DNA of 64,000 nt. Origin: Candidatus Bathyarchaeota archaeon. GTDB lineage: Archaea > Thermoproteota > Bathyarchaeia > TCS64. The position numbers and the translations under genes are program-made. Positions 19,764 to 51,533 of the stretch are shown here, in pieces (positions within the stretch are counted from its first letter, which is position 1; each line of letters begins with the position of its first letter). The stretch covers positions 3,070-67,069 of the forward strand of contig JBFYNP010000067.1 of the NCBI GenBank assembly GCA_041304325.1, in the 5' to 3' direction. Below the pieces are notes generated by a model, which worked only from the letters and a program-made list of their open reading frames with translations, had not been told where the DNA came from and searched no databases.

Positions 19764-19848
19764 GCGGGGGTTCCCGAGTGGCCAAAGGGGTCAGGTTCAG
19801 GACCTGATGGTTAGTCCTCCGTGGGTTCGAACCCCACCCTCCGCACCA
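19764..19848 (+). tRNA. tRNA-Leu(CAG), long variable arm, encoded CCA
   Basis: Hand fold: acceptor GCGGGGG/CCTCCGC, anticodon arm TCAGG-TTCAGGA-CCTGA, T arm GTGGG-TTCGAAC-CCCAC, A73. Confidence 0.9.
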
Positions 19849-20195
19849 TTTTCCCTGTAGCGCTGGGTTGTTTTTACCCGTATTTTCCCGGGATAAGCCC
19901 TATTTTGGCCCCTATCTTTCCGGGGTGGTAATTCATTTCGTTTGAGGGTTTTAATACACGTTATGGTCTCGGTGGTGTTGATTCGTTTGACGCAATTTTG
20001 TATGGTTTCTTTGGTTGTTTGTGTGCTTTAGTTTGTTAGGGTTTGGTGTATGAGTTTTTCAATGGGTGTTTATTTGGGTAAGTTTTTTTGTTGGCTTTAG
20101 TTTTTGGGGTTTGTATGTTCTCTTATGTATAGCTCGATTTCATGGTCTATGCGGCCTGATTTTATCATTTCTGTTAGGGTTGGCTCTATTCGCGC

Positions 20196-20217
20196 GCGCT
20201 GGCATGTCCCTAAATTA
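20196..20217. repeat. Left terminal inverted repeat of the IS
   Basis: 21/22 match to the reverse complement of 21459-21480. Confidence 0.8.
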
Positions 20218-20443
20218 ACCAACAATAGAATAACTTTATCTTAACAATAAGGGCCTCGTCACCTATGGCTACCAACCTAAGGAGGTCCCACCCATAGGAC
20301 AGGACGAACACGAGACCCTAGAAACACTCTTCAAAAACATCGACTTAAGCATTGCTGAACAGCAACTCCTCGGATGCTACCATATAGCAGGACCAGGAAG
20401 ACCACCCCGAAACCCACTCGGAATCCTCAGAGCCCTCCTCATA

Positions 20444-21280
20444 ATGCGGCTGAAAGGAATACGCAGCCTCAGAGAGCTCACAAGGATCCTCGACATCGAC
20501 CAACGCCTAAGAGAACTATGCCTAATCAGGAAAGATGAGAACGGTTACCCGAGGTCAGTAATCAGCCGCTTCACCAGACGAGTCGGAGCTGAGACCATTC
20601 AACTCATAATCGAGGAGAAGGTGGTCTGGCTTCTCCGAAGAAGCGGCGTCACCGAGGTGGATGTGGTTCTGGATGCCAGCTTCATCAAGGCCTGGAGCAT
20701 CAGAGACCCGGCGGATAACCGGAAGGGTCTCTCGGACCCGGATGCTCGTGTGGGCAGGAACGGCAGAGGATTCGACCTCGGATATAAGATGCACTCGGGG
20801 TTGGAGCCGAAGCGGGTTCTGCCTCTCGCCACATTGCTGGCTTCTGCTAATGAGAATGAGAAGAGGCATGCGGCGACGCTGGTGGAGAGGAGCCTCTCGG
20901 TTCTATCGAGGGCGGGTGTGAAGCTTGGGAGCCTGATCGCGGATAGCCAGTACAGTAGCGCTAAGGTTAGGTCTCTCGTTGAGCGTGCGGTGATCCCGTA
21001 TATGTCGAATCAGAGAGTTGAGGGCGATGCGCTGCGGGTTGATAGGCTGTTCAGGACACATGGCTCTGCTGAGGAGGTGTATCGTAGGCGGCCTGCTGTT
21101 GAGGCGTTGTTCGCGTTTCTGAAGAATCAGTTTGGGTCGACGGTGAACAAGGTTCGGGGGTTGGCGAAGGTTGGGATGTATTCTCTGCTGAGTGTGCTGT
21201 GTTTGGTGTTGAATCGGGAGGCGGCGGAGAATGTGGGTCGTCCGGATAAGGCGTTGTCTCCGACGTTCTTTAACGTGTGA
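20444..21280 (+). CDS. DDE transposase (IS4/IS5-like, DDE_Tnp_1 type)
   Basis: Has the GRPPRNPLGILRALLIMRLKG N-terminal signature, VVLDASFIKAW, IADSQYSS and RRPAVEALFAFLKNQFG. The frame is open from 20234, but the first canonical start is at 20444. Confidence 0.85.
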   Translation: MRLKGIRSLRELTRILDIDQRLRELCLIRKDENGYPRSVISRFTRRVGAETIQLIIEEKVVWLLRRSGVTEVDVVLDASFIKAWSIRDPADNRKGLSDPDARVGRNGRGFDLGYKMHSGLEPKRVLPLATLLASANENEKRHAATLVERSLSVLSRAGVKLGSLIADSQYSSAKVRSLVERAVIPYMSNQRVEGDALRVDRLFRTHGSAEEVYRRRPAVEALFAFLKNQFGSTVNKVRGLAKVGMYSLLSVLCLVLNREAAENVGRPDKALSPTFFNV

Positions 21281-21458
21281 GCGCTGAGTGGGTGTGCATG
21301 GAGGTATAGCTAGTTGTTGCTCTGCTTGTTTGTCTGGGTTCGTTAGTTTTCTGGGTGGGTTGTTGTTTGCTGTGGTTTGTTTTGGTTGGTTGATGGGTTT
21401 TTGGTTTGTTTGTGTGGTGGGTTTGCTCTGTTTATTGGGGGGTTGTTAGAAATATGTC

Positions 21459-21480
21459 TAATTTAGGGACAGGCCAGCGC
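21459..21480. repeat. Right terminal inverted repeat of the IS
   Basis: The reverse complement matches 20196-20217 at 21/22 positions. Confidence 0.8.
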
Positions 21481-21497
21481 CGGCGAGGATATAGACA

Positions 21498-21893
21498 GTG
21501 GATGAAATACAAGCGACACTTCATACTTTCCTAGATGCTTTCTCAAAGCTGGATCTCGAAACCATGATAAGCTGCTTCGCAGATGATTCAACTGCATTCT
21601 TCCCCTCAGAACATCAAATAGAGCGTCTAGTAGGTAAAACCTCCATAAAAAACGCTTTCACTGATGTCATAGCTAAAGTTAAAAGATCTGGCGGCGAGAA
21701 CCTAAAACTAGAAACCGAAGATGTAATAGCTCAAAGGTTTGGAGACGTAGCCCTCGTGACCTTCCAAATATTCGACACCCAAACCTCGCGACGTACCCTC
21801 GTCATGAAACGTGGCCATGAGGGCTGGCAGGTTATCCACATGCATGCTTCAAACGCGTCTTCGAAACCTATCCAGCGGGAGGTTAAACCTTGA
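21498..21893 (+). CDS. SnoaL-like / DUF4440 (NTF2-fold) protein
   Basis: 131 aa. The N-terminal FLDAFSKLDLETMISCFADDSTAFFP pattern is typical of the NTF2-like SnoaL/DUF4440 fold. GTG start 17 nt after the IS end. Confidence 0.65.
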   Translation: MDEIQATLHTFLDAFSKLDLETMISCFADDSTAFFPSEHQIERLVGKTSIKNAFTDVIAKVKRSGGENLKLETEDVIAQRFGDVALVTFQIFDTQTSRRTLVMKRGHEGWQVIHMHASNASSKPIQREVKP

Positions 21894-22486
21894 AAAAGGG
21901 GGACTTAGCCCTCATCCTTATCGACATCCAAAAAGACTTCTGGAGACCCTACGAGGCAAACCCTCAATTTAAATCCTTCCCAGGCAACATTCGCAGCCTC
22001 CTCACAGCAGCTCGCGAGAGAGGGATCACAATCATTCACACCCAAGCTTACTTCAAGCAGGATCGAGGAGACTGGATGCTCTTCTACAGACCTCAGGGAC
22101 GCGGTAACGTGCCATGCATAGAGGGAACCGTGGGTGCTGAGTTTGAGGAATTCTCTGAGCCTTTAATGAATGAACACGTAGTCAGGAAGCAGACCTTCGA
22201 CGGCTTTGTCGACACGGATCTTGCTAACGTATTAAAAGAAAATGGGATTAAAGTTGCGTTCATCGTGGGGCTGGAGACCTCTGTTTGTGTACTTTTCACA
22301 GCTACTTCGGTTTATCTTAAACGGATCGTTCCAGTAGTCATTTCAGATGCCTGTGCAGATGACCCGCAGCGACACAAGTCGACGCTTAAAATGTATAACA
22401 AATTATGTTTTTTGACAACGACAACACATGAGGTCCTCAATGAATGGGAGAAAGTAGTGAAGGAAGCTGAACCCTTCATTCTATAA
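21890..22486 (+). CDS. Isochorismatase-family cysteine hydrolase
   Basis: Has LILIDIQKDF (catalytic Asp region) and GLETSVCV (catalytic Cys). TTG start overlaps the upstream stop. Confidence 0.85.
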   Translation: MKKGDLALILIDIQKDFWRPYEANPQFKSFPGNIRSLLTAARERGITIIHTQAYFKQDRGDWMLFYRPQGRGNVPCIEGTVGAEFEEFSEPLMNEHVVRKQTFDGFVDTDLANVLKENGIKVAFIVGLETSVCVLFTATSVYLKRIVPVVISDACADDPQRHKSTLKMYNKLCFLTTTTHEVLNEWEKVVKEAEPFIL

Positions 22487-22540
22487 AAGAGCATGCTCCT
22501 ATGAGTAACGTTTTCAGCAGCCGCGCGTGCGGTGGGTAGC

Positions 22541-23080
22541 TTAGTCGGGGGCAACCCCATAGGGTAAGCGGAACTCTCTTCCATCAGGAGCAGTTACCAT
22601 GAAGTGATCTTCTTTTAACTCTTCATTATAGTATCGGCTAACCTTCCAACCTAGTTCGATATAATCTTGTTTAACAGCATCATTTAAAAAATCAATAATA
22701 CTTCCAACATAACAATAAGCAGAACCAACATTATAGAAGAAACCAGTTACCTCATTAACCCCAAAAGCGGATAACATCAAATCTCTTCTAAAATCACTCT
22801 CCATAAACATTTTAAACACATCCTTCATATCCATTTTCTTGTCCAACTGTTCAACCATCTGCTGAAAAACTTCACCTATACTCTTCTCGTTATTCAGATC
22901 AAACCTAACCTTCCTGCTATTAATCAAGATAAAATCTTTATAGATCCTCTCAACCGCATCGTCAACGTTTTCAACCCCCATAGCGGTCTGCATGAGGATT
23001 AAGCTCCTCATAGAACCTTTAGACAGCTGAATCACTGGCGCAGTTACACCAACACTACTTGTATCTGTATCCTTTCTCAA
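22541..23080 (-). CDS. Hypothetical protein; a conserved-looking HTH segment lies in frame upstream (open to 23206) without a canonical start
   Basis: The ORF from TTG is 179 aa. The in-frame upstream stretch reads IPKIRQEKVERIKQLIREGLTSVEIREKTGASEGYIGKL, which looks like a resolvase/Hin-like HTH. Confidence 0.5.
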   Translation of the reverse strand: MRKDTDTSSVGVTAPVIQLSKGSMRSLILMQTAMGVENVDDAVERIYKDFILINSRKVRFDLNNEKSIGEVFQQMVEQLDKKMDMKDVFKMFMESDFRRDLMLSAFGVNEVTGFFYNVGSAYCYVGSIIDFLNDAVKQDYIELGWKVSRYYNEELKEDHFMVTAPDGREFRLPYGVAPD

Positions 23081-23828
23081 CTTCCCAATATAACCCTCTG
23101 ACGCACCAGTCTTTTCACGGATTTCAACACTAGTTAAACCCTCCCGGATCAGCTGCTTGATCCTCTCTACCTTCTCTTGTCTTATCTTAGGGATAACAAT
23201 AAAACATTATTAATCATCAAATAAAAAAACTATCCATGCACTAAACAATATATCCAATGACCATGCATCACCTTACCAGCCAACCACGCGCGTGGTGCTT
23301 CCTCCCAGCTACACCACCATATAGCTACCCGGGACAGCCTCACACCCCAACCCAAATCAATATGCAATGCATCAGCTTACACTAGTGAAGATATATAATA
23401 AACCAACATCAAACAAACATTCAAGAACAAGATTAGATCAATCATCTTTCCTACAAGATCGCTTATTAAATCACTCAAGAAAAAATAAGATAATTCAAAA
23501 GAAAGAAAACTATTGCTACTTGATCTAAAACCAAATTAAAACAAACGTAAACGAAAGATAAAACACTAAAACGACAAAAATAAATCCTATAAAGAAATAA
23601 AAAACTACTTTATTCCAAGATAAAACTTTTTTAAAACCGCATCCACAAATCAATCACCTACACAAACGCAAATAACCTGCGAAAAACCCCAAATAAAAAA
23701 TGAATTAAAATTCATCCAATTAATTAATAAAATCTCTCCAATTAAATAAACAAAAAAAATGCAAAAATCGTGCACACTTTATGATGAAACGATATTAATA
23801 CCGGTAAGCCTTTTATTGTTTGACTAAT

Positions 23829-24308
23829 ATGTCATCAAAAACCCAAATCCTAAAAGAACTATTAGAGTACCACTTTAATTCTCTAGATGAGACGTTGAAA
23901 AACCTAGAAGAAAATGAGATGCATTACAAACCCACCGAGGAATCTAATAACATCGACTGGATCGTCAACCACCTCACCAGAATCAGCAACACCGCCCTCC
24001 CAAGAATCATAAAAGGAGACCCAAACTACAAACCAGCAGGATGGGCTGACGACTATAAAGACCACTGCTATGGAATCAACAAGTATCGAAGCGACCTAGC
24101 CGCTGGAAAGAAAACCATCTACGAAGGATTAGAAAAATTAACCGACGCCCAACTTGAAGAAGAGATCCCTCTCTGGGGTGGAACAAAGAAGAGAAAGGAA
24201 GGACTCTTCGCCTATATCGGAGAAATAGTCTCCCATAAAGGCCAGATCGCTTACCTCCGCGGCACAGTGAAGAGACTCAAGGCGAAGAACCCCGCCTTCC
24301 TAGCCTAA
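23829..24308 (+). CDS. DinB-family protein, paralog 1
   Basis: About 160 aa, four-helix bundle size. Conserved His positions are WIVNHLTR and SHKGQIAYLRG. Confidence 0.75.
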   Translation: MSSKTQILKELLEYHFNSLDETLKNLEENEMHYKPTEESNNIDWIVNHLTRISNTALPRIIKGDPNYKPAGWADDYKDHCYGINKYRSDLAAGKKTIYEGLEKLTDAQLEEEIPLWGGTKKRKEGLFAYIGEIVSHKGQIAYLRGTVKRLKAKNPAFLA

Positions 24309-24374
24309 CCCACCCCTACAACGCTTTTTAAACCACGTCTCCAAATAACTTAATAGGTTTTCAGGTTAACAACA

Positions 24375-24842
24375 ATGTCCGCAAAAGTAGAAACAATAAA
24401 AGCATTCGCCCAAGTAGGGTTTGACCGACTCGGAAGAGCCACCAAAGACCTTAAGAAAGAGCACCTAGACTGGAAGAGCGTCCCCGAAGCAAACAACGTA
24501 AGATGGGTACTAACTCACATGAGCCAAGAGTTGAACATCTACATCCCAAGGATCCTTAAAGACGATCCAAACTACAACCCAAATGGATGGCCTCAAGATT
24601 ACATCGGAAACACAAGCTACCCCATCGAGGAAATCATGCAGGATTTAGAGAAAGGCAAATCCGACCTAATGGAAGGCCTCGACAAGTTAAAGGACACCGA
24701 CCTCGATGCAGAGATCGAGATGTGGGGGTCCAAACGTAAGAAGGGTCAAGCTCTCATCGGGATGGTCTCTGAGATGATCCACCATGAAGGGCAAATCTCA
24801 GCCATCCTCGGCCTCAACAAGAGAATGGAGCAACACAAGTAA
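24375..24842 (+). CDS. DinB-family protein, paralog 2
   Basis: Has LDWKS...VRWVLTHMSQE...MIHHEGQISAILG. Clearly paralogous to 24924-25382. Confidence 0.8.
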   Translation: MSAKVETIKAFAQVGFDRLGRATKDLKKEHLDWKSVPEANNVRWVLTHMSQELNIYIPRILKDDPNYNPNGWPQDYIGNTSYPIEEIMQDLEKGKSDLMEGLDKLKDTDLDAEIEMWGSKRKKGQALIGMVSEMIHHEGQISAILGLNKRMEQHK

Positions 24843-24923
24843 CCACCACATCACCTTTTTTCACCACTAAATATTTAGGTTTAAACAACATATCTTTTAA
24901 CCCAGTTATAGATGTGATTGAAA

Positions 24924-25382
24924 ATGACCGTAAAGACTAATATGATAAAAGATTTCGCCGAGATCGGGTTCACCCGACTCGGAAACGCAACGAAGAACCT
25001 AACAGAGGAGCAACTCGACTGGAAGAGCTGTGATCACGCTAACACAATTAGATCAATACTCACCCACATGAGTGAAGAGCTTAATGTCTATCTTCCCAAG
25101 TTCTTAGGAACAGCCCCCCCGAAGGACTGGCCAAAAGACTATGGCACAAATAAAAACTACAAGCTCGCCAAACTCCTAAAAGACATCGAGTCAGGTAAAA
25201 GAAAATACTACGCTGGATTGAACAAACTCACAAACGAAAAGATCGATGAAGAGGTCGACGGATGGTACGGCAAGAAACCTCGCATCTACTACATCATGTT
25301 GATGACTACAGAGATCATCCACCATGAAGGTCAGATCGCTGCGATCCTCGGTATAGATAAGAGGATTAAAGGCATCAAGTAA
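24924..25382 (+). CDS. DinB-family protein, paralog 3
   Basis: Has LDWKS...IRSILTHMSEE...IIHHEGQIAAILG. Confidence 0.8.
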   Translation: MTVKTNMIKDFAEIGFTRLGNATKNLTEEQLDWKSCDHANTIRSILTHMSEELNVYLPKFLGTAPPKDWPKDYGTNKNYKLAKLLKDIESGKRKYYAGLNKLTNEKIDEEVDGWYGKKPRIYYIMLMTTEIIHHEGQIAAILGIDKRIKGIK

Positions 25383-25438
25383 CCCACACTTTTTATTCCT
25401 CGCTTATTTTCATTTCCTTATTCAAGTAGGTTAAGTCT

Positions 25439-26551
25439 TTGAGAATAGGAATCACATGTTACCCTGGGGTAGGCGGCTCCGGCATATTAGCAACCAGACT
25501 CGGCGTAGAGTTCGCAAAAAGGGACCACGAGGTTCACTTCATCACCTATGAGCGCCCCTTCGGAATCCAAGGGCTGGATACAAAAAACGTGTATGTCCAC
25601 CTGGTATCTGTACTTGATTATCCTCTATTCAAGTACCCCCCCTATACGGTTGCACTGGCATCTGAGATGGTGCGTACATGCCAGCAAGAGAACCTTGACG
25701 TAATCAATGTTCATTATTCTGTACCTCATGCAACCTCCGCATACCTGAACAGAGAGATAACTGGTGTACCCTACATAGTTACTCTCCACGGTTCAGATGT
25801 TACGATAGTAGGAAGCGACGCGAGCTACAATCCGGTTAACACTCACTCGGTAGAAAAAGCGGATGCAGTCACAGCTGTCTCCAGTTTTATGCAGAGAGAA
25901 GCCTATGAGCGCCTAGGAATCAGAAGAGAAGTGAAAGTGATCCCTAACTTCGTTGACCCTGCACTCTTTTTCCCGGCTGACTGCGATGCTTTGGAGCGTC
26001 GAGATAAGGATGAGGTCATAATCATCCATGTTAGCAACTTCCGCCCCGTTAAGCGAGTTCAAGACCTGATCTACGCTATGAAAATTGTTGTCAAAAATTA
26101 TCCTAAAACTAGAATGCTGCTTGTTGGAGATGGTCCCGATAGAGGTCCCGTTGAGCATCTTATCGATCAATTTGACCTGAATAATAATGTGACTTTAACG
26201 GGCTTCCGAAGCGATATACCAAACCTAATGCGCTGCAGTGACATAGGCGTCCTCAGCAGCGAGACAGAGAGCGCGCCATTAACTCTGCTTGAGGGTATGA
26301 GCACCGGTTTACCGATGGTAGCTACGAGCGTAGGAGGCATACCTGAAATAGTCACCGATGGAGTGGATGGCTTCATTGTTCCGCCAAAACACCCAGAAGT
26401 GATAGCGGAGGCACTAATCGCATTAGTGAATGACCAAAAGCTCCGAACCAGTATTGGAGCTAAGGCTCGTGAAAAGATTCTTAACCAATACACTTCCGAG
26501 AAAGTAGTTAACGCTTACCTTGAAATATTTAACTCAGTCAAGAAAAATTAA
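25439..26551 (+). CDS. bshA: GT4 glycosyltransferase, BshA-type (N-acetyl-alpha-D-glucosaminyl L-malate synthase-like)
   Basis: RIGITCYPGVGGSGILAT, FKYPPYT, TLHGSDVT, HVSNFRPVKRVQD, LVGDGPD and GGIPEIV follow Bacillus BshA closely along the whole length. TTG start. Confidence 0.85.
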   Translation: MRIGITCYPGVGGSGILATRLGVEFAKRDHEVHFITYERPFGIQGLDTKNVYVHLVSVLDYPLFKYPPYTVALASEMVRTCQQENLDVINVHYSVPHATSAYLNREITGVPYIVTLHGSDVTIVGSDASYNPVNTHSVEKADAVTAVSSFMQREAYERLGIRREVKVIPNFVDPALFFPADCDALERRDKDEVIIIHVSNFRPVKRVQDLIYAMKIVVKNYPKTRMLLVGDGPDRGPVEHLIDQFDLNNNVTLTGFRSDIPNLMRCSDIGVLSSETESAPLTLLEGMSTGLPMVATSVGGIPEIVTDGVDGFIVPPKHPEVIAEALIALVNDQKLRTSIGAKAREKILNQYTSEKVVNAYLEIFNSVKKN

Positions 26552-28265
26552 CGAAATAGACAGCGGAATTCGGCGTATTAGGGACATATTGTCTAGTGTA
26601 AGCACCCATCAGATCTTTCACACCCGAAACAAGAGCTATGTCAAGCCAGAGCCAGCTAACCTCCTGGCCATATTTTTCGGGAGCAAAACGTCCATAGGCA
26701 GAGCTGAGATATGTGTCAATCAAACCTAACTCGTTTTGCTTATTCTTCATTAAAGAGATAAGCTGTTGCCTAGTATCCGGGTTAACGAGTTTAGTTTTTA
26801 TAATTTCGATTTCACTTATCAATCGCCTCTCTTCAGATTCGAGTTTACTGTAAGCTGAGTCAACAGACGTCTTAATCTCATCATAAGCTACACCCATCAG
26901 ATCAACAGAGCCTTTCTTCTTCGCTTCAACCCACATAGAAAGAGCGTTGAAAAGCTCTTCACGAATCAATGTCGGATAGCCTTTCTGTTTTAAAGTCTCA
27001 GCCTGCAACTCGTTCCACGGTGTATTATAATAAACTCTAGCATAGCGAATGTAAACAGGAAAACTCAATCCTATAGCCCGGACTCCCGGCATCACTTCTG
27101 CATGGTAACTAGTCTCACCTGGACCACCAACATGAGCAGAAATTGGCATTACTGAGCTAACTGCAATCTGCCTAGAATCTACACGAGGTGAAATCGATTC
27201 AGCTAAATCCGAGAGATCAGGATTCACCACATCAACACTGAACACGTACTCCTCCAAGCATTTAGAGCATTTTCCCCTCAGCTCAGCACGAGAGCCTTCA
27301 AGGCTATACTTGAGTTCAACTCTATTACCGTGACAACCCTGTTTCGAGCACTCATAGAAGAAAGGCACATAATCCTTTTCACGTTTCCCAATCTGCGCCC
27401 GATAACCGCTTGACTCAATGAGGTCAACAGCATCGTTCGTAGCATAGATGAATCGACTCCGATTAGGCTCAGATAACAGCCGCTCAAACCCGGGTGCAAT
27501 CAGGCGGCGAATCTTAGAAACAGATGGTTTGAAAAAGACAACACCGAAGTTTGCTTCAACGTTAAATAATGTACCAAGGATCCGGCTAGACCAATCTGCA
27601 ACGTTGTCGGACGCGTAATAAGCTAAACGTATGATAGTAGAGATATGTGAAAGATTCTCCAGCATTATCTCCTGCTTCGCTGGAGCTACACCCTTAAGAA
27701 GACCACGCGTATTTCCCTCAATCTTTTCAAGACTTTTCCTAAGCCACTCCTCAGAAGGGTTAGGAAGGTTCCTGATCGGGGAACCCTCATAACCGACCGG
27801 AACCGGATAAGCAAATACAACACCTCTCCCCCCCGGGCTTGGAAGCCTTCCGTTGATAAGTTCAGGCTGAACGCCATCATAGTCCCCGATAAAGTATATA
27901 GGGACACATCCCCCCTCCTTCGCCAGCGCAACAGTATAAGCTGTCTTATTGAGTATTAGGCTTGGACCTGCCAGGAGGTTAGGTTGTTGCCCAGTCTCTG
28001 CAGCACCCAAGTCAAGGTTATCTATATTGTAATTAGCCTTCTCTGTAAGGATCCCTAGCGCCTTCATACTTTCTTTCAACGCTTTCTTAAGATCCTCCAG
28101 TCTTTCAGACGGATGGCTAAAATCCGTTTTACTTTTTCTCATCTGAGCGCCTGCCTCAGCCATATCTCGAGGAATAGCTCCCCAAAGCCTCTCAGCTAAT
28201 CTATTCCCCTCAGGGTTCACCAGATACCGACTATACAACTGATGGACAGGTAGCGCCTCAGACAT
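26538..28265 (-). CDS. bshC: BshC-family protein (bacillithiol biosynthesis cysteine-adding enzyme-like)
   Basis: 575 aa. TGQQPNLLAGPSLILNKT..., PIYFIGDYD and HVGGPGETSYHAEV correspond to the GGQQxGLxxGPLY, WxAGEDHD and AGPGExxYW blocks of BshC. Has a C-terminal coiled coil. Confidence 0.8.
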   Translation of the reverse strand: MSEALPVHQLYSRYLVNPEGNRLAERLWGAIPRDMAEAGAQMRKSKTDFSHPSERLEDLKKALKESMKALGILTEKANYNIDNLDLGAAETGQQPNLLAGPSLILNKTAYTVALAKEGGCVPIYFIGDYDGVQPELINGRLPSPGGRGVVFAYPVPVGYEGSPIRNLPNPSEEWLRKSLEKIEGNTRGLLKGVAPAKQEIMLENLSHISTIIRLAYYASDNVADWSSRILGTLFNVEANFGVVFFKPSVSKIRRLIAPGFERLLSEPNRSRFIYATNDAVDLIESSGYRAQIGKREKDYVPFFYECSKQGCHGNRVELKYSLEGSRAELRGKCSKCLEEYVFSVDVVNPDLSDLAESISPRVDSRQIAVSSVMPISAHVGGPGETSYHAEVMPGVRAIGLSFPVYIRYARVYYNTPWNELQAETLKQKGYPTLIREELFNALSMWVEAKKKGSVDLMGVAYDEIKTSVDSAYSKLESEERRLISEIEIIKTKLVNPDTRQQLISLMKNKQNELGLIDTYLSSAYGRFAPEKYGQEVSWLWLDIALVSGVKDLMGAYTRQYVPNTPNSAVYFVNFS

Positions 28266-28267
28266 AA

Positions 28268-29230
28268 TTAACTCTCCAATTTGAGGAGTCTTGCGGCGTT
28301 CTTGTAAAAGATCTTATCAACAGTACTATCCTCAACTCCAATAGCGCGAACTTCCCGAACCTGCTCACGGAGATAGTTCTCACTAAAGCCACGGGGGAAA
28401 TAACTAGAGTCAGTAGCGAAGATGATCCTATCAGCCCCAACTGTCTCTAAACACTTCAAGAAAAGGTCTCTGAGAGTCAATTTGTAAGGCATCCACGCCA
28501 TCCACTGGTTGCTACCAGATGTATCTATCATAACATTAGGACAAGCCCAACATAGCTGAAGGAGCTCACGGAAATAACAGGCTCCAAAGTGAGGGATCAC
28601 AAATTTTAGGGTAGGATACGAGGCAGCGACCTCCCATAGACTGAGGGGGTCGAGGTTATGGAGGTTTCTCGCTGGTCCACCACCTCCTCCGAGGACACCG
28701 AAATGGATTAGAACGGGGATCTCTAGCTTTTCAGCCATCTCCCAGACAGGATATGCTTCTTTGTCATCTATGTTTCTAGTGAGGCCGGAAGATAATAGTT
28801 TGAACCCTCGGAGCCCGAGTTTTGTGACAGCTCGCTCGAGTTCATCGGCTGCGTTCGGTGAGAAAAGGTCGTGATGAGCGAATCCGGTGAACCTCTCAGA
28901 GTGCATCTTAACAATTTTAGCTAAGTTATCGTTTCCTCCTCCCATCACGAAGTTAACACGTTCAACGTTCTTCTTATCCAGGTCTGCCACCCAACGTTCT
29001 GCCTGTTCTTCATCGCTATGGATTGATGTTTCCGGTGTGTCAAATCCCCACTTATGGCGCCAATCTTCGCGGTACTTTGCAGACTGCTCCATGAAAATCT
29101 TTGCTTTCCGCTCACCAAATTTTTCAATCATGCTCTGCATGTAACCGCCTCCCGGAGTGCCAGTACGTTGCACAGGGAAATGGGAGTGGAAGTCAAGTAC
29201 TCTGAACCCATGATTGGCCATAGAATCCAC
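28268..29230 (-). CDS. Amidohydrolase_2 (TIM-barrel metal-dependent hydrolase) family protein
   Basis: Has an LDFHSHFP N-terminal metal site, VLIHFG and IFATDSSYFP. It ends 2 nt before the bshC start. Confidence 0.75.
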   Translation of the reverse strand: MDSMANHGFRVLDFHSHFPVQRTGTPGGGYMQSMIEKFGERKAKIFMEQSAKYREDWRHKWGFDTPETSIHSDEEQAERWVADLDKKNVERVNFVMGGGNDNLAKIVKMHSERFTGFAHHDLFSPNAADELERAVTKLGLRGFKLLSSGLTRNIDDKEAYPVWEMAEKLEIPVLIHFGVLGGGGGPARNLHNLDPLSLWEVAASYPTLKFVIPHFGACYFRELLQLCWACPNVMIDTSGSNQWMAWMPYKLTLRDLFLKCLETVGADRIIFATDSSYFPRGFSENYLREQVREVRAIGVEDSTVDKIFYKNAARLLKLES

Positions 29231-29288
29231 CGAATAATCTAGGAGACCTCATGGGGCGTAAAAAGGTTTACCGAGTTGGGTATATCAT

Positions 29289-29630
29289 CTATCGCCAGGC
29301 AGTAAGTGTGACACCTACAAGTATCAGGAACATTCCAGCCCAGTTGGTTGGGGTAAACCCTTCTCCTAAGTAGACACTAGCGAACAGACCAACCCAAATA
29401 TAGGATGTTGCCAGTATTGGGTACAATATGCTCACTTCTCCGAAACTCAACGCATAAACGTAGATTAAGGTACATACCGCGTAAAGGGATAGCCCGATAA
29501 TGAGGTGAGTGTTGCTAAACAACTCATTTAGATTAAATGACATTTGTGAGGAGCCTTTTTTGATCTCTATCTGGCCAACAGCTCCGAGAAACGCAGCGAA
29601 AACCGTTATTATAATTGGCTTCCAGTCCAT
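29289..29630 (-). CDS. Small 4-TM membrane protein, EamA/SMR-like (DMT superfamily)
   Basis: 113 aa with four hydrophobic helices. The size and pattern resemble single EamA-domain/SMR transporters. Confidence 0.6.
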   Translation of the reverse strand: MDWKPIIITVFAAFLGAVGQIEIKKGSSQMSFNLNELFSNTHLIIGLSLYAVCTLIYVYALSFGEVSILYPILATSYIWVGLFASVYLGEGFTPTNWAGMFLILVGVTLTAWR

Positions 29631-29685
29631 GCTTCACCAATAATCTTAGGAGATTTAGAACTATCTCCCTTAACATTAAAATTTA

Positions 29686-30342
29686 TTATAACTTTTTTGT
29701 GGCTTTTTCTGTATAGAATGGTCCGTTTCGTGGAAGAACCTCCTCCTGAAAGGCTTCAGCATAGCTGCAGTTGCTCTGGATACCTCTAAGCTCTGCTTTC
29801 TTCAGATTCCAATCTTCATAGTAACGCCAAGGAAATTTAGCTAGCTGCGTCGGGTAGCAGGAGATAGCAGCTTTTTTCTTATCAACCATTTTTGAGACAT
29901 CTACTATTACACCTGGGTTAGGTATCAATGTGTTAATTTCCATGAGTAGGAGACGCTCCACTAGCCAGGGATCTTTATAAGTTGTAGTATGGGCACCCCA
30001 CTCGATTGCTTCCTTAACGAGGTTATACGTTGCACGGTGGTCAACATGATAATCGTATGGAAGATGAGTTATAACGATTCTAGGTTTCTCCGCAACGATA
30101 AAGTCCGCTACAAATTTCACCTTCAATCTCGAATTATTGACTTCGTCCTCATTCAAGACATGTGGATCAGCGATACCTAATTCTCGGCAAGCATCTACGA
30201 TTTCTTTTCGTCTTTCCCGAGGATTACAGGTGATGCATAATACGCAAGCATCCCCCCCGTTTGCGGCGTGAAGAGCGAGTGTTCCTCCGCAGCCAAAAGT
30301 TTCATCATCAGGGTGGCTGACCACAGCGAGTATACCTTTCAC
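29686..30342 (-). CDS. bshB: PIG-L/LmbE-family deacetylase, BshB-like
   Basis: The AVVSHPDDETFGCGGTLA zinc-binding signature is followed by a HVDH motif. GTG start. Confidence 0.8.
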   Translation of the reverse strand: MKGILAVVSHPDDETFGCGGTLALHAANGGDACVLCITCNPRERRKEIVDACRELGIADPHVLNEDEVNNSRLKVKFVADFIVAEKPRIVITHLPYDYHVDHRATYNLVKEAIEWGAHTTTYKDPWLVERLLLMEINTLIPNPGVIVDVSKMVDKKKAAISCYPTQLAKFPWRYYEDWNLKKAELRGIQSNCSYAEAFQEEVLPRNGPFYTEKATKKL

Positions 30343-31425: not shown

Positions 31426-32496
31426 ATGACAATAAAAGTAGCTGTAGCCGGAGTTGGAAACTGCGCTTCTGCCCTGATTCAAGGAGTTGAATTCTATAAA
31501 AACGTAGAGAAGGACGATGACATTCCGGGAGTCATGCATGCCTACTTCGGAAAATATCATATACGCGACATCGAATTCGTCACCGCCTTTGAGGTCAACA
31601 AGAAAAAAATCGGTAAGGACCTCTCAGAAGCAATATGGGCAGAGCCAAACTGCTGCGCCAAGTTCAGTGATGTTCCTAAGATGGGGGTTAAGGTTGAAGC
31701 AGGCCCTATAAGTGATGGTGTCGCCCCTCACATGTATGAGGCTTTCCACGTCGACAAAACTATCAAACCAGTAGATGTTGCGGACACACTAAAAGAAAAT
31801 GGCGCAGATATGCTTGTAAATTATCTGCCTGTAGGCTCTGCAAAAGGAACCCAGCTCTACGCTCAAGCTTGCCTCGACGCTAAAGTAGCTATGATCAACT
31901 GCATCCCAGAGTTTATCGCTTCGAACCCCACTTGGGCTAAGAAATTTATTAAAGCAAAAATACCTGTAGCTGGAGATGACATCAAGAGCCAGATCGGTGC
32001 TACCATTGTGCACCGTGTACTTGCCAAATTATTTTACGATCGCGGAGTCAAGATGGATTCAACTTATCAGCTAAACATCGGAGGGAACACCGATTTCCTC
32101 AACATGACGGTGGAGAAGAGGCTTCAGACGAAGCGGATAAGCAAAACTGAAGCTGTTAAGAGTTTAATACCTTATGACGTACCCACCAGAATTGGCCCCA
32201 GCGACTACGTTCCATTCTTAGAGGACCATAAAGTCTGCTATATACGAATCAACGGCAAAGGCTTCGGGGATCTACCACTCCTCTTCGACGGTAAGCTCCT
32301 CGTTAACGATAGCCCCAATAGTGGAGGTGTAGTAATCGACCTAATCCGAGCCGTCAAAATCGCGTTAGACAGAGGTCTTTATGGACCTCTACTCGGGATA
32401 AGCAGCTACAGTTTCAAACATCCCCCAATACAAGTTCCTGACGACGAAGCGAAGAACTGGGTTGAAGACTTTATAACCGGGAAAAGAAACGACTAA
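31426..32496 (+). CDS. myo-Inositol-1-phosphate synthase (archaeal/bacterial short type)
   Basis: 356 aa. Has IKVAVAGVGNCASALIQG at the N-terminus, the GDDIKSQIGAT and NIGGNTDF motifs, and PSDYVPFL. Confidence 0.85.
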   Translation: MTIKVAVAGVGNCASALIQGVEFYKNVEKDDDIPGVMHAYFGKYHIRDIEFVTAFEVNKKKIGKDLSEAIWAEPNCCAKFSDVPKMGVKVEAGPISDGVAPHMYEAFHVDKTIKPVDVADTLKENGADMLVNYLPVGSAKGTQLYAQACLDAKVAMINCIPEFIASNPTWAKKFIKAKIPVAGDDIKSQIGATIVHRVLAKLFYDRGVKMDSTYQLNIGGNTDFLNMTVEKRLQTKRISKTEAVKSLIPYDVPTRIGPSDYVPFLEDHKVCYIRINGKGFGDLPLLFDGKLLVNDSPNSGGVVIDLIRAVKIALDRGLYGPLLGISSYSFKHPPIQVPDDEAKNWVEDFITGKRND

Positions 32497-48789: not shown

Positions 48790-50247
48790 ATGATAGGATT
48801 CAAATCAAAATGGATTGTTGCCTACGATGGTAACGAACATCGCCTTCTTAGAGACGGTGAGTTAATTTTAGAAGGCAATAGGATTGAATATGTCGGAAAG
48901 AAATATTCGGGGCAAGTAGATGAATGGATTGATGCATCTCATCACGTAATCACTCCGGGTTTTTTCTGTACTCACGCTCATGCGGCTTCTGCTCCGAAGG
49001 ATAAGAGCTTCATCGATGATATTGGAGCTAAACATTTCTACATGTCTTCTTTGGGGGAGAATCTAACAGCCTTAGGAATGAGTATGAAACCTGATGATTA
49101 CCATGTTTACGCGAAATACAGTATTGCTGAACTGCTAACAAGCGGATGTACCACCATGGTAGAAATAGGCATGGTAGGAAGTCTTGGTGCAGAAAAGACA
49201 ATCAAATATATTGAAGAAATGGGAATACGAGCCGTCGAAGGGGTAGGAATCGAAGATGGTACATGGAGTCGATCTCAAGGAGCTAATCTCGTAACAGAGT
49301 GGAGAGAACTTGAATATGGATTAAAACAACTTGACGAAGCTGAAAAATTCGTTAAAAAATATGATGGTAAACTCGAAGGCAGATTGATTGGTGCATTATA
49401 TCCGTCTACAGTTGATAAGGTAAGTGCTAAGCTTCAAAACGCAGTTCGCGAAAAAGCGAATGAGTTAAAGTGTCCGGTAAGCATCCACGCGGGGCAATGG
49501 GCTATCGAGTTCCAGAATATGATAAGGATGTACCGAAAAACACCGATAGAGTTTCTGCATGAAACAGGTCTTCTAAACAAAGACCTTATAATTGGACATG
49601 GTTGGGCAATAGCTGGGCATCCCCTATTAGGATACCCGCCAGTTGAAGGAACAGATGACCTTGCTTTGCTAGCCAAATCCGGAGCTACAGTTAGTCATGA
49701 TCCGCTTGTCTTTTTGAAACGTGGAAATAAAATGTGCAGTCATACAAAATATCTGCAAGCTGGAGTAAACGTATCAATAGGCTGTGACACGAGTCCACAA
49801 GATATTTTAAATGAAATGCGAATGGCAAGCTACGTTACAAAACTAGCAGATTCAAGCTGTTTTAGTGGTAGTGCAAAAGAAATTTTCAACAGCGCAACAT
49901 TAGGAGGTGCAAAAGCAATCCAGAAAAATAATTTGGGAAAAATAATCAAAGGTGCATTAGCTGACATTGTGATCATAGACATGCAAACAATAAATAATGT
50001 CCCATGTCGCGATCCGGTTAAAAATATAGTTAATTGCGCAACAAGAAACGATGTTAAACACGTAATTATAAATGGTGAATTCGTAGTAAAAGATGGAAAG
50101 CTACTAACCATTAACGAACAGGAATTAGTTAAACAAGTCCAAAAAACGACTCAAGCAGTTTGGGATAGAATACCTGAGAATCATTACCTCAACCAGAACA
50201 GCGACGAAGTAAGCCCACAGAGCTTCAAAATATGGAACGGAGACTAA
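48790..50247 (+). CDS. Amidohydrolase-family protein (chlorohydrolase/aminohydrolase, SsnA/MtaD-like)
   Basis: Has TPGFFCTHAHA (HxH metal site), SIHAG, GHG and CDTSPQD motifs. Confidence 0.8.
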   Translation: MIGFKSKWIVAYDGNEHRLLRDGELILEGNRIEYVGKKYSGQVDEWIDASHHVITPGFFCTHAHAASAPKDKSFIDDIGAKHFYMSSLGENLTALGMSMKPDDYHVYAKYSIAELLTSGCTTMVEIGMVGSLGAEKTIKYIEEMGIRAVEGVGIEDGTWSRSQGANLVTEWRELEYGLKQLDEAEKFVKKYDGKLEGRLIGALYPSTVDKVSAKLQNAVREKANELKCPVSIHAGQWAIEFQNMIRMYRKTPIEFLHETGLLNKDLIIGHGWAIAGHPLLGYPPVEGTDDLALLAKSGATVSHDPLVFLKRGNKMCSHTKYLQAGVNVSIGCDTSPQDILNEMRMASYVTKLADSSCFSGSAKEIFNSATLGGAKAIQKNNLGKIIKGALADIVIIDMQTINNVPCRDPVKNIVNCATRNDVKHVIINGEFVVKDGKLLTINEQELVKQVQKTTQAVWDRIPENHYLNQNSDEVSPQSFKIWNGD

Positions 50248-50278
50248 ACTTGTCAAAAAAATCGGGCGCACAAATGTC

Positions 50279-51244: not shown

Positions 51245-51533
51245 GAAAGTTCATGTAAACTTAAATTGACTTATATTTAGAGGATTCGGATTTACTCGTT
51301 GTTTATTGTTCAAATAATCGCAATGACTTCTTAAAATAACAATCCAACATCACAATACACGTCCGGTTTTCTAACTTTAATTTATAAATATTTGAGTAAT
51401 ATTTGATAATGAGTATGCTTAGTCTTGATAGATTGTTATAGATATTTGATATCCTATTGGTCGCGGAGAATTAATTGGTGAAATTACACCAGATCTTAGG
51501 CTACAGTGGATTAAGGAACTTCAAGAAGCTCCC

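What the first reader, a model, noticed from the sequence alone, without database searches (positions are those of the whole stretch)
23829..30342. Complete bacillithiol-type thiol gene set (bshA, bshC, bshB) in one compact locus of an archaeal chromosome
Seen in sequence: a GT4 enzyme matches Bacillus BshA block by block (25439-26551). A 575-aa protein carries the BshC signature blocks (26538-28265). An LmbE/PIG-L deacetylase is also present (29686-30342). They form two convergent units: DinB x3 with bshA on the + strand, and bshB-membrane protein-amidohydrolase-bshC on the - strand. The bshA and bshC 3' ends overlap by 14 nt. Established knowledge: in Bacillus, BshA, BshB and BshC together make bacillithiol, their genes are scattered there, and DinB/YfiT proteins act as bacillithiol S-transferases. 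Inference: this archaeon probably makes bacillithiol or a close variant, and the locus is a self-contained thiol-redox module. Because it sits in the accessory tract after tRNA-Leu, it may have been acquired horizontally. The biochemistry of BshC itself is still poorly resolved, so a tightly linked archaeal version with extra genes is a useful handle.
Basis: partly seen in the sequence, partly recalled or inferred. Interest (0 to 1): 0.75.

Follow-up and report, generated by a model that had tools for sequence, protein, structure and literature searches.

The report
Archaeal bacillithiol-type thiol gene cluster
This Bathyarchaeia chromosome carries a native, widely conserved gene cluster that very probably makes and uses a bacillithiol-like protective thiol, but its cysteine-adding enzyme and deacetylase are deeply divergent archaeal versions, not standard Bacillus-type BshC and BshB.

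Summary
BshA passes its NCBIfam equivalog model (397.9 bits; cutoff 273.7).

The 575-aa protein is still a true, deep BshC homolog. Its AlphaFold model has one significant PDB match, B. subtilis BshC, and hhalign against canonical BshCs gives 99.8% probability. It belongs to an archaeal subfamily with an invariant 4-Cys zinc-ribbon-like insert that the six canonical bacterial BshCs examined lack.

PIG-L, the BshC-like gene and BshA are linked in about 55 Bathyarchaeia and about 25 Asgard species-level loci. Bathyarchaeia loci add DinB transferases, often an Amidohydro_2 gene, and sometimes a thioredoxin-fold gene. The same Amidohydro_2 ortholog also flanks a fully canonical bshC-bshB1-bshA operon in another lineage.

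Recent horizontal acquisition is not supported. Synteny is conserved on both sides and codon usage is native. Only the 19.85–23.8 kb transposase tract looks foreign.

Archaeal BshA/BshC homologs were noted in a 2020 review, while a 2025 survey reported none. I rate this a new variant of a known pathway, of moderate interest. The chemistry is untested.

The parts
23820..24308 (+). DinB1: DinB_2/MST-family putative thiol S-transferase (162 aa)
   Evidence: PF04978 MST 42.4 bits and PF12867 DinB_2 36.4 bits. Weak match to the mycothiol S-transferase structure 8fx9, E=1.5e-4. Invariant His51/His139 pair. Ortholog 73% identical in L001.
24375..24842 (+). DinB2: second, anciently diverged DinB_2 paralog (155 aa)
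   Evidence: PF12867 42.2 bits. 36% identical to DinB1. 46% identical to the DinB next to the canonical BSH operon in L087.
24918..25382 (+). DinB3: third DinB_2 paralog (154 aa)
   Evidence: PF12867 31.2 bits and PF05163 25.9 bits. Orthologs 68-76% identical in the Amidohydro_2-less group of Bathyarchaeia loci.
25439..26551 (+). bshA: UDP-GlcNAc:L-malate N-acetylglucosaminyltransferase (GT4), 370 aa
   Evidence: TIGR03999 thiol_BshA 397.9 bits, above the 273.7 cutoff, covering 1-367 of the protein and 1-373 of 375 profile positions. 311 bits and 40.8% identity to B. anthracis BshA 2jjm/3mbo. The MshA model gives only 67 bits.
26538..28265 (-). bshC-like: archaeal-type homolog of the BshC cysteine-adding enzyme, 575 aa
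   Evidence: TIGR03998 85.9 bits, below the 265.8 cutoff; PF10079 75 bits, above its gathering score of 27. AF2 model pLDDT 90.6. The only significant PDB match is 4wbd BshC: E=2.6e-19, TM 0.62/0.66, 561 columns, 16% identity. hhalign against canonical BshCs: 99.8% probability, E=1.8e-29. 16 of 39 canonical-invariant residues are kept.
27258..27350 (-). Codons for the C306-x4-C311 ... C333-x2-C336 zinc-ribbon-like insert of the BshC-like protein
   Evidence: All four Cys are invariant in 37 clade members. The motif is present in Asgard orthologs and absent from six canonical BshCs. It lies in a confident beta-rich subdomain, strands 302-345, block pLDDT 94-96. Zinc binding itself is inferred.
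28268..29230 (-). Amidohydro_2 (PF04909) TIM-barrel metal-dependent enzyme, 320 aa, 2 nt upstream of bshC-like
   Evidence: PF04909 129.4 bits. Invariant H15-x-H17, H176, H214 and D274. The fold is closest to ACMSD-type decarboxylases, hydratases and lactonases, TM about 0.6. It sits beside the BshC-like gene in about 35 Bathyarchaeia loci, in L088 and L090, and beside a canonical BSH operon in L087.
29289..29630 (-). Small EamA/ArnE-like membrane protein, 113 aa; about four hydrophobic segments by eye
   Evidence: PF00892 EamA 32.1 bits; ArnE model 38 bits, below cutoff. Found only here and in the 93%-identical relative. Absent from all 82 other loci.
29686..30342 (-). PIG-L/LmbE-family deacetylase, candidate bshB, 218 aa
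   Evidence: PF02585 68.5 bits. Its best NCBIfam hit is BshB1, at 78.6 bits against a 182.5 cutoff. Best PDB match is T. thermophilus TT1542 at 53 bits; BshB1 6p2t gives 28 bits. The HPDDE and HVDH motifs are present.

Best explanation
The locus is a chromosomal, vertically inherited module for making and using a bacillithiol-type low-molecular-weight thiol in a Bathyarchaeia archaeon.

Proposed pathway:
1. BshA (25439-26551) joins UDP-GlcNAc to L-malate to give GlcNAc-malate. This rests on an equivalog-level match.
2. The PIG-L enzyme (29686-30342) removes the acetyl group to give GlcN-malate. This is inferred from family membership and conserved linkage.
3. The 575-aa archaeal-type BshC homolog (26538-28265) adds cysteine to the free amine. 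This is inferred from homology, fold and linkage. The reaction is not biochemically defined even for Bacillus BshC.
4. The three DinB_2/MST proteins (23820-25382) use the thiol as S-transferases or thiol-dependent enzymes towards electrophiles (inferred).

The Amidohydro_2 enzyme, 2 nt from bshC-like, is a conserved accessory enzyme of this thiol system. Its step is unknown; candidates are processing of conjugates or of the aglycone, or modification of the thiol. The small EamA-like membrane protein is a lineage-specific add-on, possibly an exporter.

The BshC-like protein represents a distinct archaeal (Bathyarchaeia plus Asgard) subfamily with a probable structural zinc ribbon.
For: BshA passes its equivalog model here and in every Bathyarchaeia, Thorarchaeota/Promethearchaeota and Heimdallarchaeota partner locus tested: 376-418 bits against a 273.7 cutoff. 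It is 40.8% identical to crystallised B. anthracis BshA.

For the BshC-like protein, the only significant fold match is B. subtilis BshC over 561 columns. Profile-profile probability is 99.8%. Sixteen of 39 canonical-invariant residues are kept, including Q94, K107, D130, E135, the G381-P-x-E384-x-x-Y387 motif and Q534-E535.

In 79 species-level GTDB loci, PIG-L, BshC-like and BshA are adjacent, in different gene orders in Bathyarchaeia and in Thor/Promethearchaeota. They are also adjacent in a sister clade annotated Heimdallarchaeota. Co-occurrence and co-localisation with bshA is how bshC was originally identified (PMC5790435).

DinB_2 genes flank most Bathyarchaeia loci. A WCGDC thioredoxin-fold gene lies between bshC-like and bshA in about 22 loci. 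An Amidohydro_2 62% identical to this one sits beside DinB_2 and a fully canonical bshC (436 bits), bshB1 (239 bits), bshA (468 bits) operon in L087.

The locus is native: synteny is conserved on both flanks and codon usage matches the core genes.
Against: The BshC-like and PIG-L proteins are far below their equivalog cutoffs. Pairwise similarity to B. subtilis BshC is insignificant (E=0.15). Several canonical-invariant residues are replaced, including the second Asp of the canonical D-x-D motif and two Arg residues, so the substrate or the mechanism may differ.

The reaction catalysed by BshC has never been reconstituted in vitro (PMC5790435), so a cysteine-adding role is itself genetic inference. 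[quoted passage not shown]

No bacilliredoxin or Bdr/YpdA-type reductase was identified, though only part of the window's genes were screened and the rest of the genome is unavailable. The Amidohydro_2 function could not be resolved from fold.
Confidence: 0.7

Rival explanations
1. The locus makes a modified or different Cys-GlcN-type thiol rather than bacillithiol itself. For example, the Amidohydro_2 enzyme may alter the aglycone or the thiol, or the divergent BshC-like enzyme may attach a different or differently activated residue.
For: The BshC-like protein is only about 16-21% identical to canonical BshC and has lost several canonical-invariant residues. It carries a 4-Cys insert that the canonical enzymes examined lack. 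A well-conserved Amidohydro_2 enzyme (60-79% identity) is 2 nt from bshC-like. A natural BSH derivative, N-methyl-BSH, is already known (PMC6282198).
Against: BshA passes the malate-specific equivalog model with a wide margin. Amidohydro_2 is missing from the locus in about 20 Bathyarchaeia genomes and from all the Asgard loci, so it is not needed for the core product. The same Amidohydro_2 ortholog accompanies a fully canonical BSH operon, which suggests it acts on or alongside ordinary BSH.
Confidence: 0.2
2. The genes do not make a thiol. GT4 plus PIG-L build a GlcN-containing glycoconjugate, for example a glucosaminyl-inositol lipid or a GlcN-malate solute, helped by the neighbouring inositol-3-phosphate synthase. 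The BshC-like protein has some unrelated role.
For: An inositol-3-phosphate synthase gene lies 1.1 kb away, at 31426-32496. From my own knowledge, GT4 plus PIG-L pairs also make GlcN-phosphatidylinositol-type lipids. PIG-L is assigned only at family level. It also resembles archaeal diacetylchitobiose deacetylases, at 41 bits.
Against: The GT4 scores 397.9 bits on the BshA model against 67 bits on MshA and 62 bits on GlcN-PG synthase. Ino1 linkage is not conserved: it is on the opposite side of the locus in L006, L007 and L014, and absent from most loci, including all the Asgard ones. The BshC-like gene and the DinB_2 genes co-vary with the GT4 in several lineages. Thioredoxin-fold genes are inserted in the locus in about 22 genomes.
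Confidence: 0.06
3. One reading: the module is a recently acquired genomic island in the accessory tract downstream of tRNA-Leu.
For: tRNA-Leu lies at 19764-19848 and is followed by a DDE transposase, SnoaL and isochorismatase genes. These have atypical codon usage (RSCU r=0.365 against core) and lie directly next to DinB1. BshA is about as similar to Bacillus BshA (40.8%) as to Asgard BshA (45-47%), which leaves an ancient inter-domain transfer possible.
Against: The locus has native codon usage (r=0.794, against 0.795 for core versus core) and an unremarkable tetranucleotide distance. The same flanking genes occur in L001 and L002, whose BshC-like proteins are about 54% identical. The housekeeping side is collinear with a 93%-identical relative that lacks the transposase tract. 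The cluster is present in about 55 Bathyarchaeia species representatives.
Confidence: 0.03

Closest known systems
Bacillithiol biosynthesis pathway BshA/BshB/BshC of Bacillota, Chlorobiota, Bacteroidota and Deinococcota
   Same: It has the same three enzyme families in the same logical order: a GT4 GlcNAc-malate synthase, a PIG-L/LmbE deacetylase and a BshC-fold enzyme. BshA is an equivalog-level match. The BshC fold and core motifs (GQQ, K, D, E, GPGE..Y, QE) are conserved.
   Different: BshC and BshB are below their equivalog cutoffs. The BshC-like protein carries an invariant 4-Cys zinc-ribbon-like insert and does not hit the canonical coiled-coil Pfam model PF24850. All three genes are clustered with the transferases, whereas the B. 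subtilis genes are split between separate operons (PMC5790435). The host is an anaerobic archaeal lineage in which BSH has never been measured (PMC7278568).
B. subtilis BshC (YllA), PDB 4wbd
   Same: It is the only significant structural neighbour: Foldseek E=2.6e-19, TM 0.62/0.66, 561 aligned columns. That fits the same Rossmann-like core and long C-terminal helices.
   Different: Identity is 16%, and pairwise phmmer gives E=0.15. The archaeal protein is 35 residues longer, with a Cys4 beta-subdomain at residues 300-346 in place of a short Cys-free hairpin.
DinB/YfiT-family thiol S-transferases (bacillithiol BstA, mycothiol MST)
   Same: They have a DinB_2/MST domain and the conserved His pair. 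They are physically linked to the thiol-synthesis genes.
   Different: They are far below the MST equivalog cutoff (39.7 bits against 170). There are three anciently diverged paralogs, 34-36% identical to one another. The substrates are unknown.
Mycothiol pathway (MshA/MshB/MshC/MshD, Ino1)
   Same: It is an analogous Cys-GlcN thiol made by a GT4, a PIG-L deacetylase and a Cys-adding enzyme. An Ino1 gene lies nearby.
   Different: The MshA model gives 67 bits against a 462.5 cutoff, and MshB 31 bits against 224. No MshC/CysRS-like ligase or MshD is present in the locus. Ino1 linkage is not conserved.
Archaeal BshA/BshC homologs noted by Rawat and Maupin-Furlow 2020
   Same: It is the same phenomenon. 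InterPro found 39 archaeal hits each for BshA and BshC, mostly in Asgard archaea, and the authors suggested archaea may make BSH.
   Different: That note gave no locus structure, no BshB candidate, no Bathyarchaeia and no subfamily analysis. Here I add the clustering, the Zn-ribbon subfamily, the DinB, Amidohydro_2 and Trx companions, and the breadth across Bathyarchaeia.

Membership tests
[quoted passage not shown] | Whole-protein score at or above the curated equivalog cutoff (273.7 bits), with full-length coverage | tested here: met
   397.9 bits, residues 1-367 against profile positions 1-373 of 375.
[quoted passage not shown] | Close similarity to biochemically and structurally characterised BshA, in preference to other GT4 enzymes | tested here: met
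   311 bits and 40.8% identity to B. anthracis BshA 2jjm/3mbo, and 293 bits to B. subtilis BshA 5d00. The next NCBIfam family scores 157 bits, below its own cutoff.
[quoted passage not shown] | Uses UDP-GlcNAc and L-malate to form GlcNAc-malate | not testable with these tools
   This needs an enzyme assay. The structural papers listing the malate-binding residues were not available.
BshC (NCBIfam TIGR03998, bacillithiol cysteine-adding enzyme) | Whole-protein score at or above the equivalog cutoff (265.8 bits) | tested here: not met
   85.9 bits. Canonical BshCs score 436-542 bits in the same test.
BshC (NCBIfam TIGR03998, bacillithiol cysteine-adding enzyme) | N-terminal Rossmann-like BshC domain (Pfam PF10079) | tested here: met
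   75 bits against a gathering score of 27, though only residues 203-404 form the best stretch.
BshC (NCBIfam TIGR03998, bacillithiol cysteine-adding enzyme) | C-terminal BshC coiled-coil domain (Pfam PF24850) | tested here: inconclusive
   There was no PF24850 hit at E<=0.01, whereas the canonical BshC in L087 has one. However, the model shows long helices at 454-491 and 499-524, and Foldseek aligns 561 columns to 4wbd.
BshC (NCBIfam TIGR03998, bacillithiol cysteine-adding enzyme) | Overall BshC fold | tested here: met
   4wbd is the only PDB match with E<=0.001: E=2.6e-19, TM 0.62/0.66. hhalign gives 99.8% probability, E=1.8e-29, over 435 columns.
BshC (NCBIfam TIGR03998, bacillithiol cysteine-adding enzyme) | Conservation of family-invariant residues | tested here: inconclusive
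   16 of 39 canonical-invariant columns are kept in at least 80% of archaeal sequences. Several are replaced: canonical D to V132, W to F/Y125, R to Y408, R to V536. The catalytic residues of BshC are not defined.
BshC (NCBIfam TIGR03998, bacillithiol cysteine-adding enzyme) | Genomic co-occurrence and co-localisation with bshA and bshB, the criterion by which bshC was discovered | tested here: met
   It is adjacent to a BshA-equivalog GT4 and a PIG-L gene in most of the 79 loci long enough to show neighbours, in two different gene orders. The same holds in the Heimdallarchaeota sister clade.
BshC (NCBIfam TIGR03998, bacillithiol cysteine-adding enzyme) | Required for adding Cys to GlcN-malate in vivo | not testable with these tools
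   This needs genetic complementation or biochemistry. The reaction has not been reconstituted even for Bacillus BshC.
BshB1/BshB2 (NCBIfam TIGR04001/TIGR04000, GlcNAc-malate deacetylase) | Score at or above the equivalog cutoff (182.5 / 195.25 bits) | tested here: not met
   78.6 and 65.4 bits. Partner-locus PIG-L proteins score 75-93 bits. The BshB1 in L087 scores 239 bits.
BshB1/BshB2 (NCBIfam TIGR04001/TIGR04000, GlcNAc-malate deacetylase) | PIG-L/LmbE domain with the metal-binding and catalytic motifs | tested here: met
   PF02585 68.5 bits. SHPDDETFGCGG and DYHVDH are present and align to the same motifs in TT1542.
BshB1/BshB2 (NCBIfam TIGR04001/TIGR04000, GlcNAc-malate deacetylase) | Deacetylates GlcNAc-malate | not testable with these tools
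   This needs an enzyme assay.
DinB/YfiT-type thiol S-transferase (Pfam PF12867 DinB_2 / PF04978 MST) | DinB_2 or MST domain above the gathering score | tested here: met
   DinB1: MST 42.4 and DinB_2 36.4 bits. DinB2: DinB_2 42.2 bits. DinB3: DinB_2 31.2 bits. The MST equivalog NF047843 is not met: 39.7 and 30.4 bits against 170.
DinB/YfiT-type thiol S-transferase (Pfam PF12867 DinB_2 / PF04978 MST) | Conserved metal-binding histidines | tested here: met
   His51 and His139 (DinB1 numbering) are invariant across 7 sequences. A third ligand was not assigned.
DinB/YfiT-type thiol S-transferase (Pfam PF12867 DinB_2 / PF04978 MST) | Thiol-dependent S-transferase activity | not testable with these tools
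   This needs an enzyme assay with the cognate thiol.
Mycothiol pathway (MshA TIGR03449, MshB TIGR03445) | Scores at or above the equivalog cutoffs | tested here: not met
   MshA 67.1 bits against 462.5; MshB 31.3 against 224.35; Mca 16.3 against 277.

The most novel reading that the evidence does not exclude
Bathyarchaeia and Asgard archaea make a bacillithiol-type thiol with a distinct, zinc-ribbon-bearing type of BshC. The PF04909 amidohydrolase that travels with both the archaeal-type and the canonical BshC operons is a previously unrecognised enzyme of bacillithiol metabolism. Together they would give a new experimental route into the still-undefined cysteine-adding step.
Probability: 0.2. 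Interest if true: 0.75.

Novelty: new variant of a known kind. Interest (0 to 1): 0.5.

Why it matters
No low-molecular-weight Cys-GlcN thiol has been measured in any archaeon. A 2025 survey stated that no archaea encode the complete BSH pathway (PMC12719100). That survey relied on BLAST with Chlorobaculum tepidum queries against RefSeq.

This locus shows that two major uncultured archaeal groups, Bathyarchaeia and Asgard, carry a clustered three-gene set. Its BshC and BshB are too divergent for such searches. If the set is active, the known range of bacillithiol-type redox buffers extends into anoxic-sediment archaea and into the closest prokaryotic relatives of eukaryotes.

It also supplies two natural variants of the problem enzyme BshC, whose reaction has never been reconstituted: a Zn-ribbon type, and a conserved amidohydrolase companion. 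Either could be tried in reconstitution experiments.

Tried and rejected
1. A single-protein scan of GTDB genomes with the BshC-like protein found nothing. It worked only with an alignment-derived pattern.
2. Pairwise phmmer of the BshC-like protein against the PDB was insignificant (E=0.15). Structure prediction plus Foldseek and hhalign were needed.
3. I tried to read the BshA and BshC structural papers (PMC5954418, PMC2943542, PMC4303302) to check malate-binding and active-site residues. None are held, so the acceptor-site residues were not checked.
4. I tried to assign a function to Amidohydro_2. NCBIfam gave no hit, the PDB sequence search gave only remote hits, and the AF2 model with Foldseek gave only family-level matches to ACMSD-type decarboxylases, lactonases and hydratases. 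The substrate is unresolved.
5. I considered a mycothiol or GlcN-inositol reading because Ino1 is adjacent. I rejected it on model scores and non-conserved linkage.
6. I considered the HGT-island reading and rejected it on synteny and codon usage.
7. I tried to identify the organism of L087, which has the canonical operon plus Amidohydro_2. It has no tRNAs and no informative cluster names, so it remains unknown.

Full report
**Observation**

- Plus strand: three DinB-family ORFs (23820-24308, 24375-24842, 24918-25382) and a GT4 glycosyltransferase (25439-26551).
- Minus strand: a PIG-L/LmbE protein (29686-30342), a 113-aa EamA/ArnE-like membrane protein (29289-29630), an Amidohydro_2 protein (28268-29230) and a 575-aa protein (26538-28265).

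The two units converge and overlap by exactly 14 nt. Intergenic gaps are 66, 75 and 56 nt on the plus strand and 2, 58 and 55 nt on the minus strand, which fits two operons. The window is archaeal: it encodes S28e, L7Ae and IF-2B. Its nearest relatives are all annotated Candidatus Bathyarchaeota or Bathyarchaeia.

| Protein | Model | Score (bits) | Cutoff (bits) | Result |
|---|---|---|---|---|
| GT4, 25439-26551 | TIGR03999 thiol_BshA | 397.9 | 273.7 | pass |
| 575-aa protein, 26538-28265 | TIGR03998 thiol_BshC | 85.9 | 265.8 | fail |
| PIG-L, 29686-30342 | TIGR04001 thiol_BshB1 | 78.6 | 182.5 | fail |
| PIG-L, 29686-30342 | TIGR04000 thiol_BshB2 | 65.4 | 195.25 | fail |

The GT4 matches the BshA model over its full length. 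It also scores 311 bits and 40.8% identity against crystallised B. anthracis BshA. The 575-aa protein and the PIG-L protein do pass their broader Pfam domains: PF10079 at 75 bits and PF02585 at 68.5 bits. What these two proteins are is taken up next.

**The BshC-like protein**

Pairwise comparison with B. subtilis BshC (PDB 4wbd) is insignificant (E=0.15). Only the GQQ..LL.GP and GPGE..Y blocks align. Three lines of evidence nevertheless show real homology:
- An AlphaFold2 model built on 37 homologs is confident (pLDDT 90.6, pTM 0.91). Its only significant PDB neighbour is 4wbd: E=2.6e-19, TM 0.62/0.66, 561 aligned columns, 16% identity. Weak class-I aminoacyl-tRNA synthetase hits follow.
- A profile-profile comparison of the archaeal alignment with six canonical BshCs (each 464-542 bits on TIGR03998) gives 99.8% probability, E=1.8e-29, over 435 columns.
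- Sixteen of the 39 columns invariant in canonical BshC are kept in at least 80% of archaeal sequences. These include Q94, G100, K107, D130, E135, G381, P382, E384, Y387, P403, Q534 and E535. Others are replaced.

An exhaustive profile search of 1.84 billion representatives shows a sharp score gap. Full-length clade members mostly score about 220 to 860 bits. Below them comes a tail of about 1,400 proteins at 94 bits or less, which includes canonical BshCs.

The protein is therefore a genuine but deep BshC homolog that forms its own subfamily. One distinctive feature is four invariant cysteines, C306-x4-C311 and C333-x2-C336. They sit in a confident beta-rich subdomain. They are present in Asgard orthologs, and in variant form in Heimdall and more distant groups. 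All six canonical BshCs lack them and have a shorter Cys-free hairpin at that position. I interpret this as a structural zinc ribbon. That is an inference; I had no access to model coordinates or metal data.

**Distribution and linkage**

A GTDB species-representative scan found 79 loci:
- about 55 in Bathyarchaeia, at 42-55% identity;
- about 25 in Asgard archaea: Thor/Promethearchaeota at 36-39%, Hermodarchaeota at 38% and Heimdallarchaeota at 32%;
- four short contigs from MAGs labelled as bacteria. These carry typical Bathyarchaeia gene order and are probably binning errors.

A tblastn survey of the window's proteins against all loci gave these arrangements:
- Bathyarchaeia: PIG-L, [Amidohydro_2], BshC-like, then convergently BshA, DinB, DinB.
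- Thor/Promethearchaeota: PIG-L on the opposite strand, then BshA and BshC-like co-directional. No DinB or Amidohydro_2 homologs were found beside these loci.
- A sister clade annotated Heimdallarchaeota again has BshC-like, BshA and PIG-L together.

Every partner GT4 tested passes the BshA equivalog model (376-418 bits). Every partner PIG-L has BshB1 as its best hit but scores only 75-93 bits. About 22 Bathyarchaeia loci also carry a thioredoxin-fold protein with a WCGDC motif between bshC-like and bshA.

Conserved linkage of the three families across phyla, in different gene orders, is strong evidence that they act in one pathway. It is also the type of evidence by which bshC was first identified (PMC5790435).

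**The extra genes**

*Amidohydro_2.* The gene is 2 nt from bshC-like. About 35 Bathyarchaeia loci have it in the same position. Its ortholog group is better conserved (59-96% identity among the best 120 hits) than the BshC-like protein.
- In a genome whose thiol locus lacks it (L082), the gene is elsewhere but still next to a DinB-like ORF (L086).
- On a 797-kb metagenomic contig of unknown organism (L087), an ortholog 62% identical sits next to DinB_2 and a fully canonical operon: BshC 436 bits, BshB1 239 bits and BshA 468 bits, all above cutoff.
- This amidohydrolase therefore accompanies both BshC types, which ties it to bacillithiol metabolism.

Its chemistry is unresolved. It keeps an HxH/H/H/D metal set. 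Its model (pLDDT 85) resembles ACMSD-type non-oxidative decarboxylases, hydratases and lactonases only at family level, with TM about 0.6 and 13-21% identity.

*EamA-like membrane protein.* It occurs only in this window and in a 93%-identical relative, so it is a lineage-specific addition.

*DinB genes.* The three are old paralogs, 34-36% identical to one another. They share a conserved His pair, and their orthologs in other genomes are 70-76% identical.

**Horizontal transfer**

The evidence points the other way.
- Left flank: Ogg, IF-2B, NAD_binding_2, GCV_T and GCV_H also flank the DinB side in L001 and L002, whose BshC-like proteins are only about 54% identical.
- Right flank: DUF8155, Ino1, NDK, S28e, L7Ae, GluRS and polyprenyl synthase are collinear with the 93%-identical relative. 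Beyond DinB1 that relative has different genes and no transposase tract.
- Codon usage of the locus correlates with flanking core genes as well as core genes correlate with each other (RSCU r=0.794 against 0.795). Its tetranucleotide distance is ordinary: 25% of same-size windows are more deviant.
- Only the 19850-23819 tract is atypical (r=0.365). It holds a DDE transposase, SnoaL, isochorismatase and an unknown 179-aa ORF.

The thiol locus is native, and the island is a separate small insertion beside it. An ancient inter-domain transfer cannot be excluded, especially for bshA, which is about as similar to Bacillus BshA as to Asgard BshA. That needs rooted phylogenies, which I could not build properly here.

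**Mechanism**

*Supported at equivalog level:* BshA makes GlcNAc-malate.

*Inferred from family plus conserved linkage:* PIG-L deacetylates GlcNAc-malate, and the BshC-like enzyme adds cysteine to give bacillithiol or a close derivative. The DinB proteins use this thiol on electrophiles.

*Speculative:* Amidohydro_2 acts on the thiol, its conjugates or its aglycone. The EamA-like protein exports something. The Cys4 motif binds structural zinc.

I put 0.7 on the core reading. A modified or different thiol gets 0.2, a non-thiol glycoconjugate 0.06, and a recent island 0.03.

**Comparison with what is known**

[quoted passage not shown] GenBank already labels some of these proteins 'bacillithiol biosynthesis BshC'. 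A 2025 RefSeq BLAST survey concluded that no archaea contain the complete pathway (PMC12719100). Full-text searches found no paper linking bacillithiol genes to Bathyarchaeia beyond incidental mentions.

The finding is therefore not categorically new. It is a new variant of a known pathway. What I add is the subfamily definition, the Zn-ribbon insert, the breadth in Bathyarchaeia, and the conserved DinB, Amidohydro_2 and Trx companions. Interest is moderate (0.5). It would rise if the amidohydrolase or the archaeal BshC type helped to solve the unreconstituted BshC reaction.

Noticed in passing
window 19850-23819: A small insertion tract lies between tRNA-Leu(CAG) and DinB1. It holds a DDE_Tnp_1 transposase (20444-21280), a SnoaL-like gene (21498-21893), an isochorismatase (21890-22486) and an unknown 179-aa ORF (22541-23080). 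Its codon usage is atypical (RSCU r=0.365 against core). It is absent from the 93%-identical relative, which has other genes beyond DinB1.
   Followed up: partly
window 51534-51962 (+): A fourth DinB_2 protein (142 aa, 71.9 bits, weak MDMPI_N hit) lies about 21 kb from the locus. It is only 17% identical to DinB1, so it is a distinct DinB subfamily.
   Followed up: partly
window about 49000-57500: This is the most compositionally deviant stretch of the window (GC about 0.39, the highest tetranucleotide distance). It encodes an HD-domain protein, the fourth DinB_2, TatD, a metallo-beta-lactamase-fold protein (53904-54809) and a TrmB-family regulator (55427-56272). I did not examine whether any of these relates to thiol metabolism, for example as a glyoxalase II-like enzyme.
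   Followed up: no
L003 9740-10333 (-) and about 22 other Bathyarchaeia loci (e.g. L016, L029, L046, L088): A 197-aa thioredoxin-fold protein (PF14595 Thioredoxin_9, WCGDC motif) is inserted between bshC-like and bshA. It is a candidate redoxin for this thiol system. It is absent from the window.
   Followed up: partly
L087 6001-10961 (JGI metagenome 3300034406, 797-kb contig): An organism of unknown identity has Amidohydro_2 (62% identical to the window's), DinB_2, and fully canonical BshC, BshB1 and BshA, all above NCBIfam cutoffs. This links the PF04909 ortholog group to standard bacillithiol operons.
   Followed up: partly
L025 and L034 (both CP070640.1, Bathyarchaeota bin91 chromosome): One genome carries two separate BshC-like plus BshA loci. 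One has Amidohydro_2 and a DinB. The other has neither these nor PIG-L nearby. This suggests a duplicated module.
   Followed up: no
L021, L027, L079, L028: Short contigs in MAGs labelled Krumholzibacteriaceae, Desulfaltia and Patescibacteria (all from the SMAG_U14xxx series) carry loci with typical Bathyarchaeia gene order and about 50% identity to the window's BshC-like protein. They are probably binning contamination rather than bacterial occurrences.
   Followed up: partly
L088 11574-12945; L003 13976-14593: MerR/GyrI-like regulator genes sit next to the DinB genes in some Bathyarchaeia loci. They may be effector-responsive regulators of the module.
   Followed up: no
L085 62-2661 and proteins P0193, P0198, P0201: Still more divergent BshC-superfamily proteins exist (94 bits or less against the archaeal profile; little or no TIGR03998 signal). 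They have their own Cys4-type motifs. P0193 is adjacent to a PIG-L gene. These may be further uncharacterised branches of the family.
   Followed up: partly
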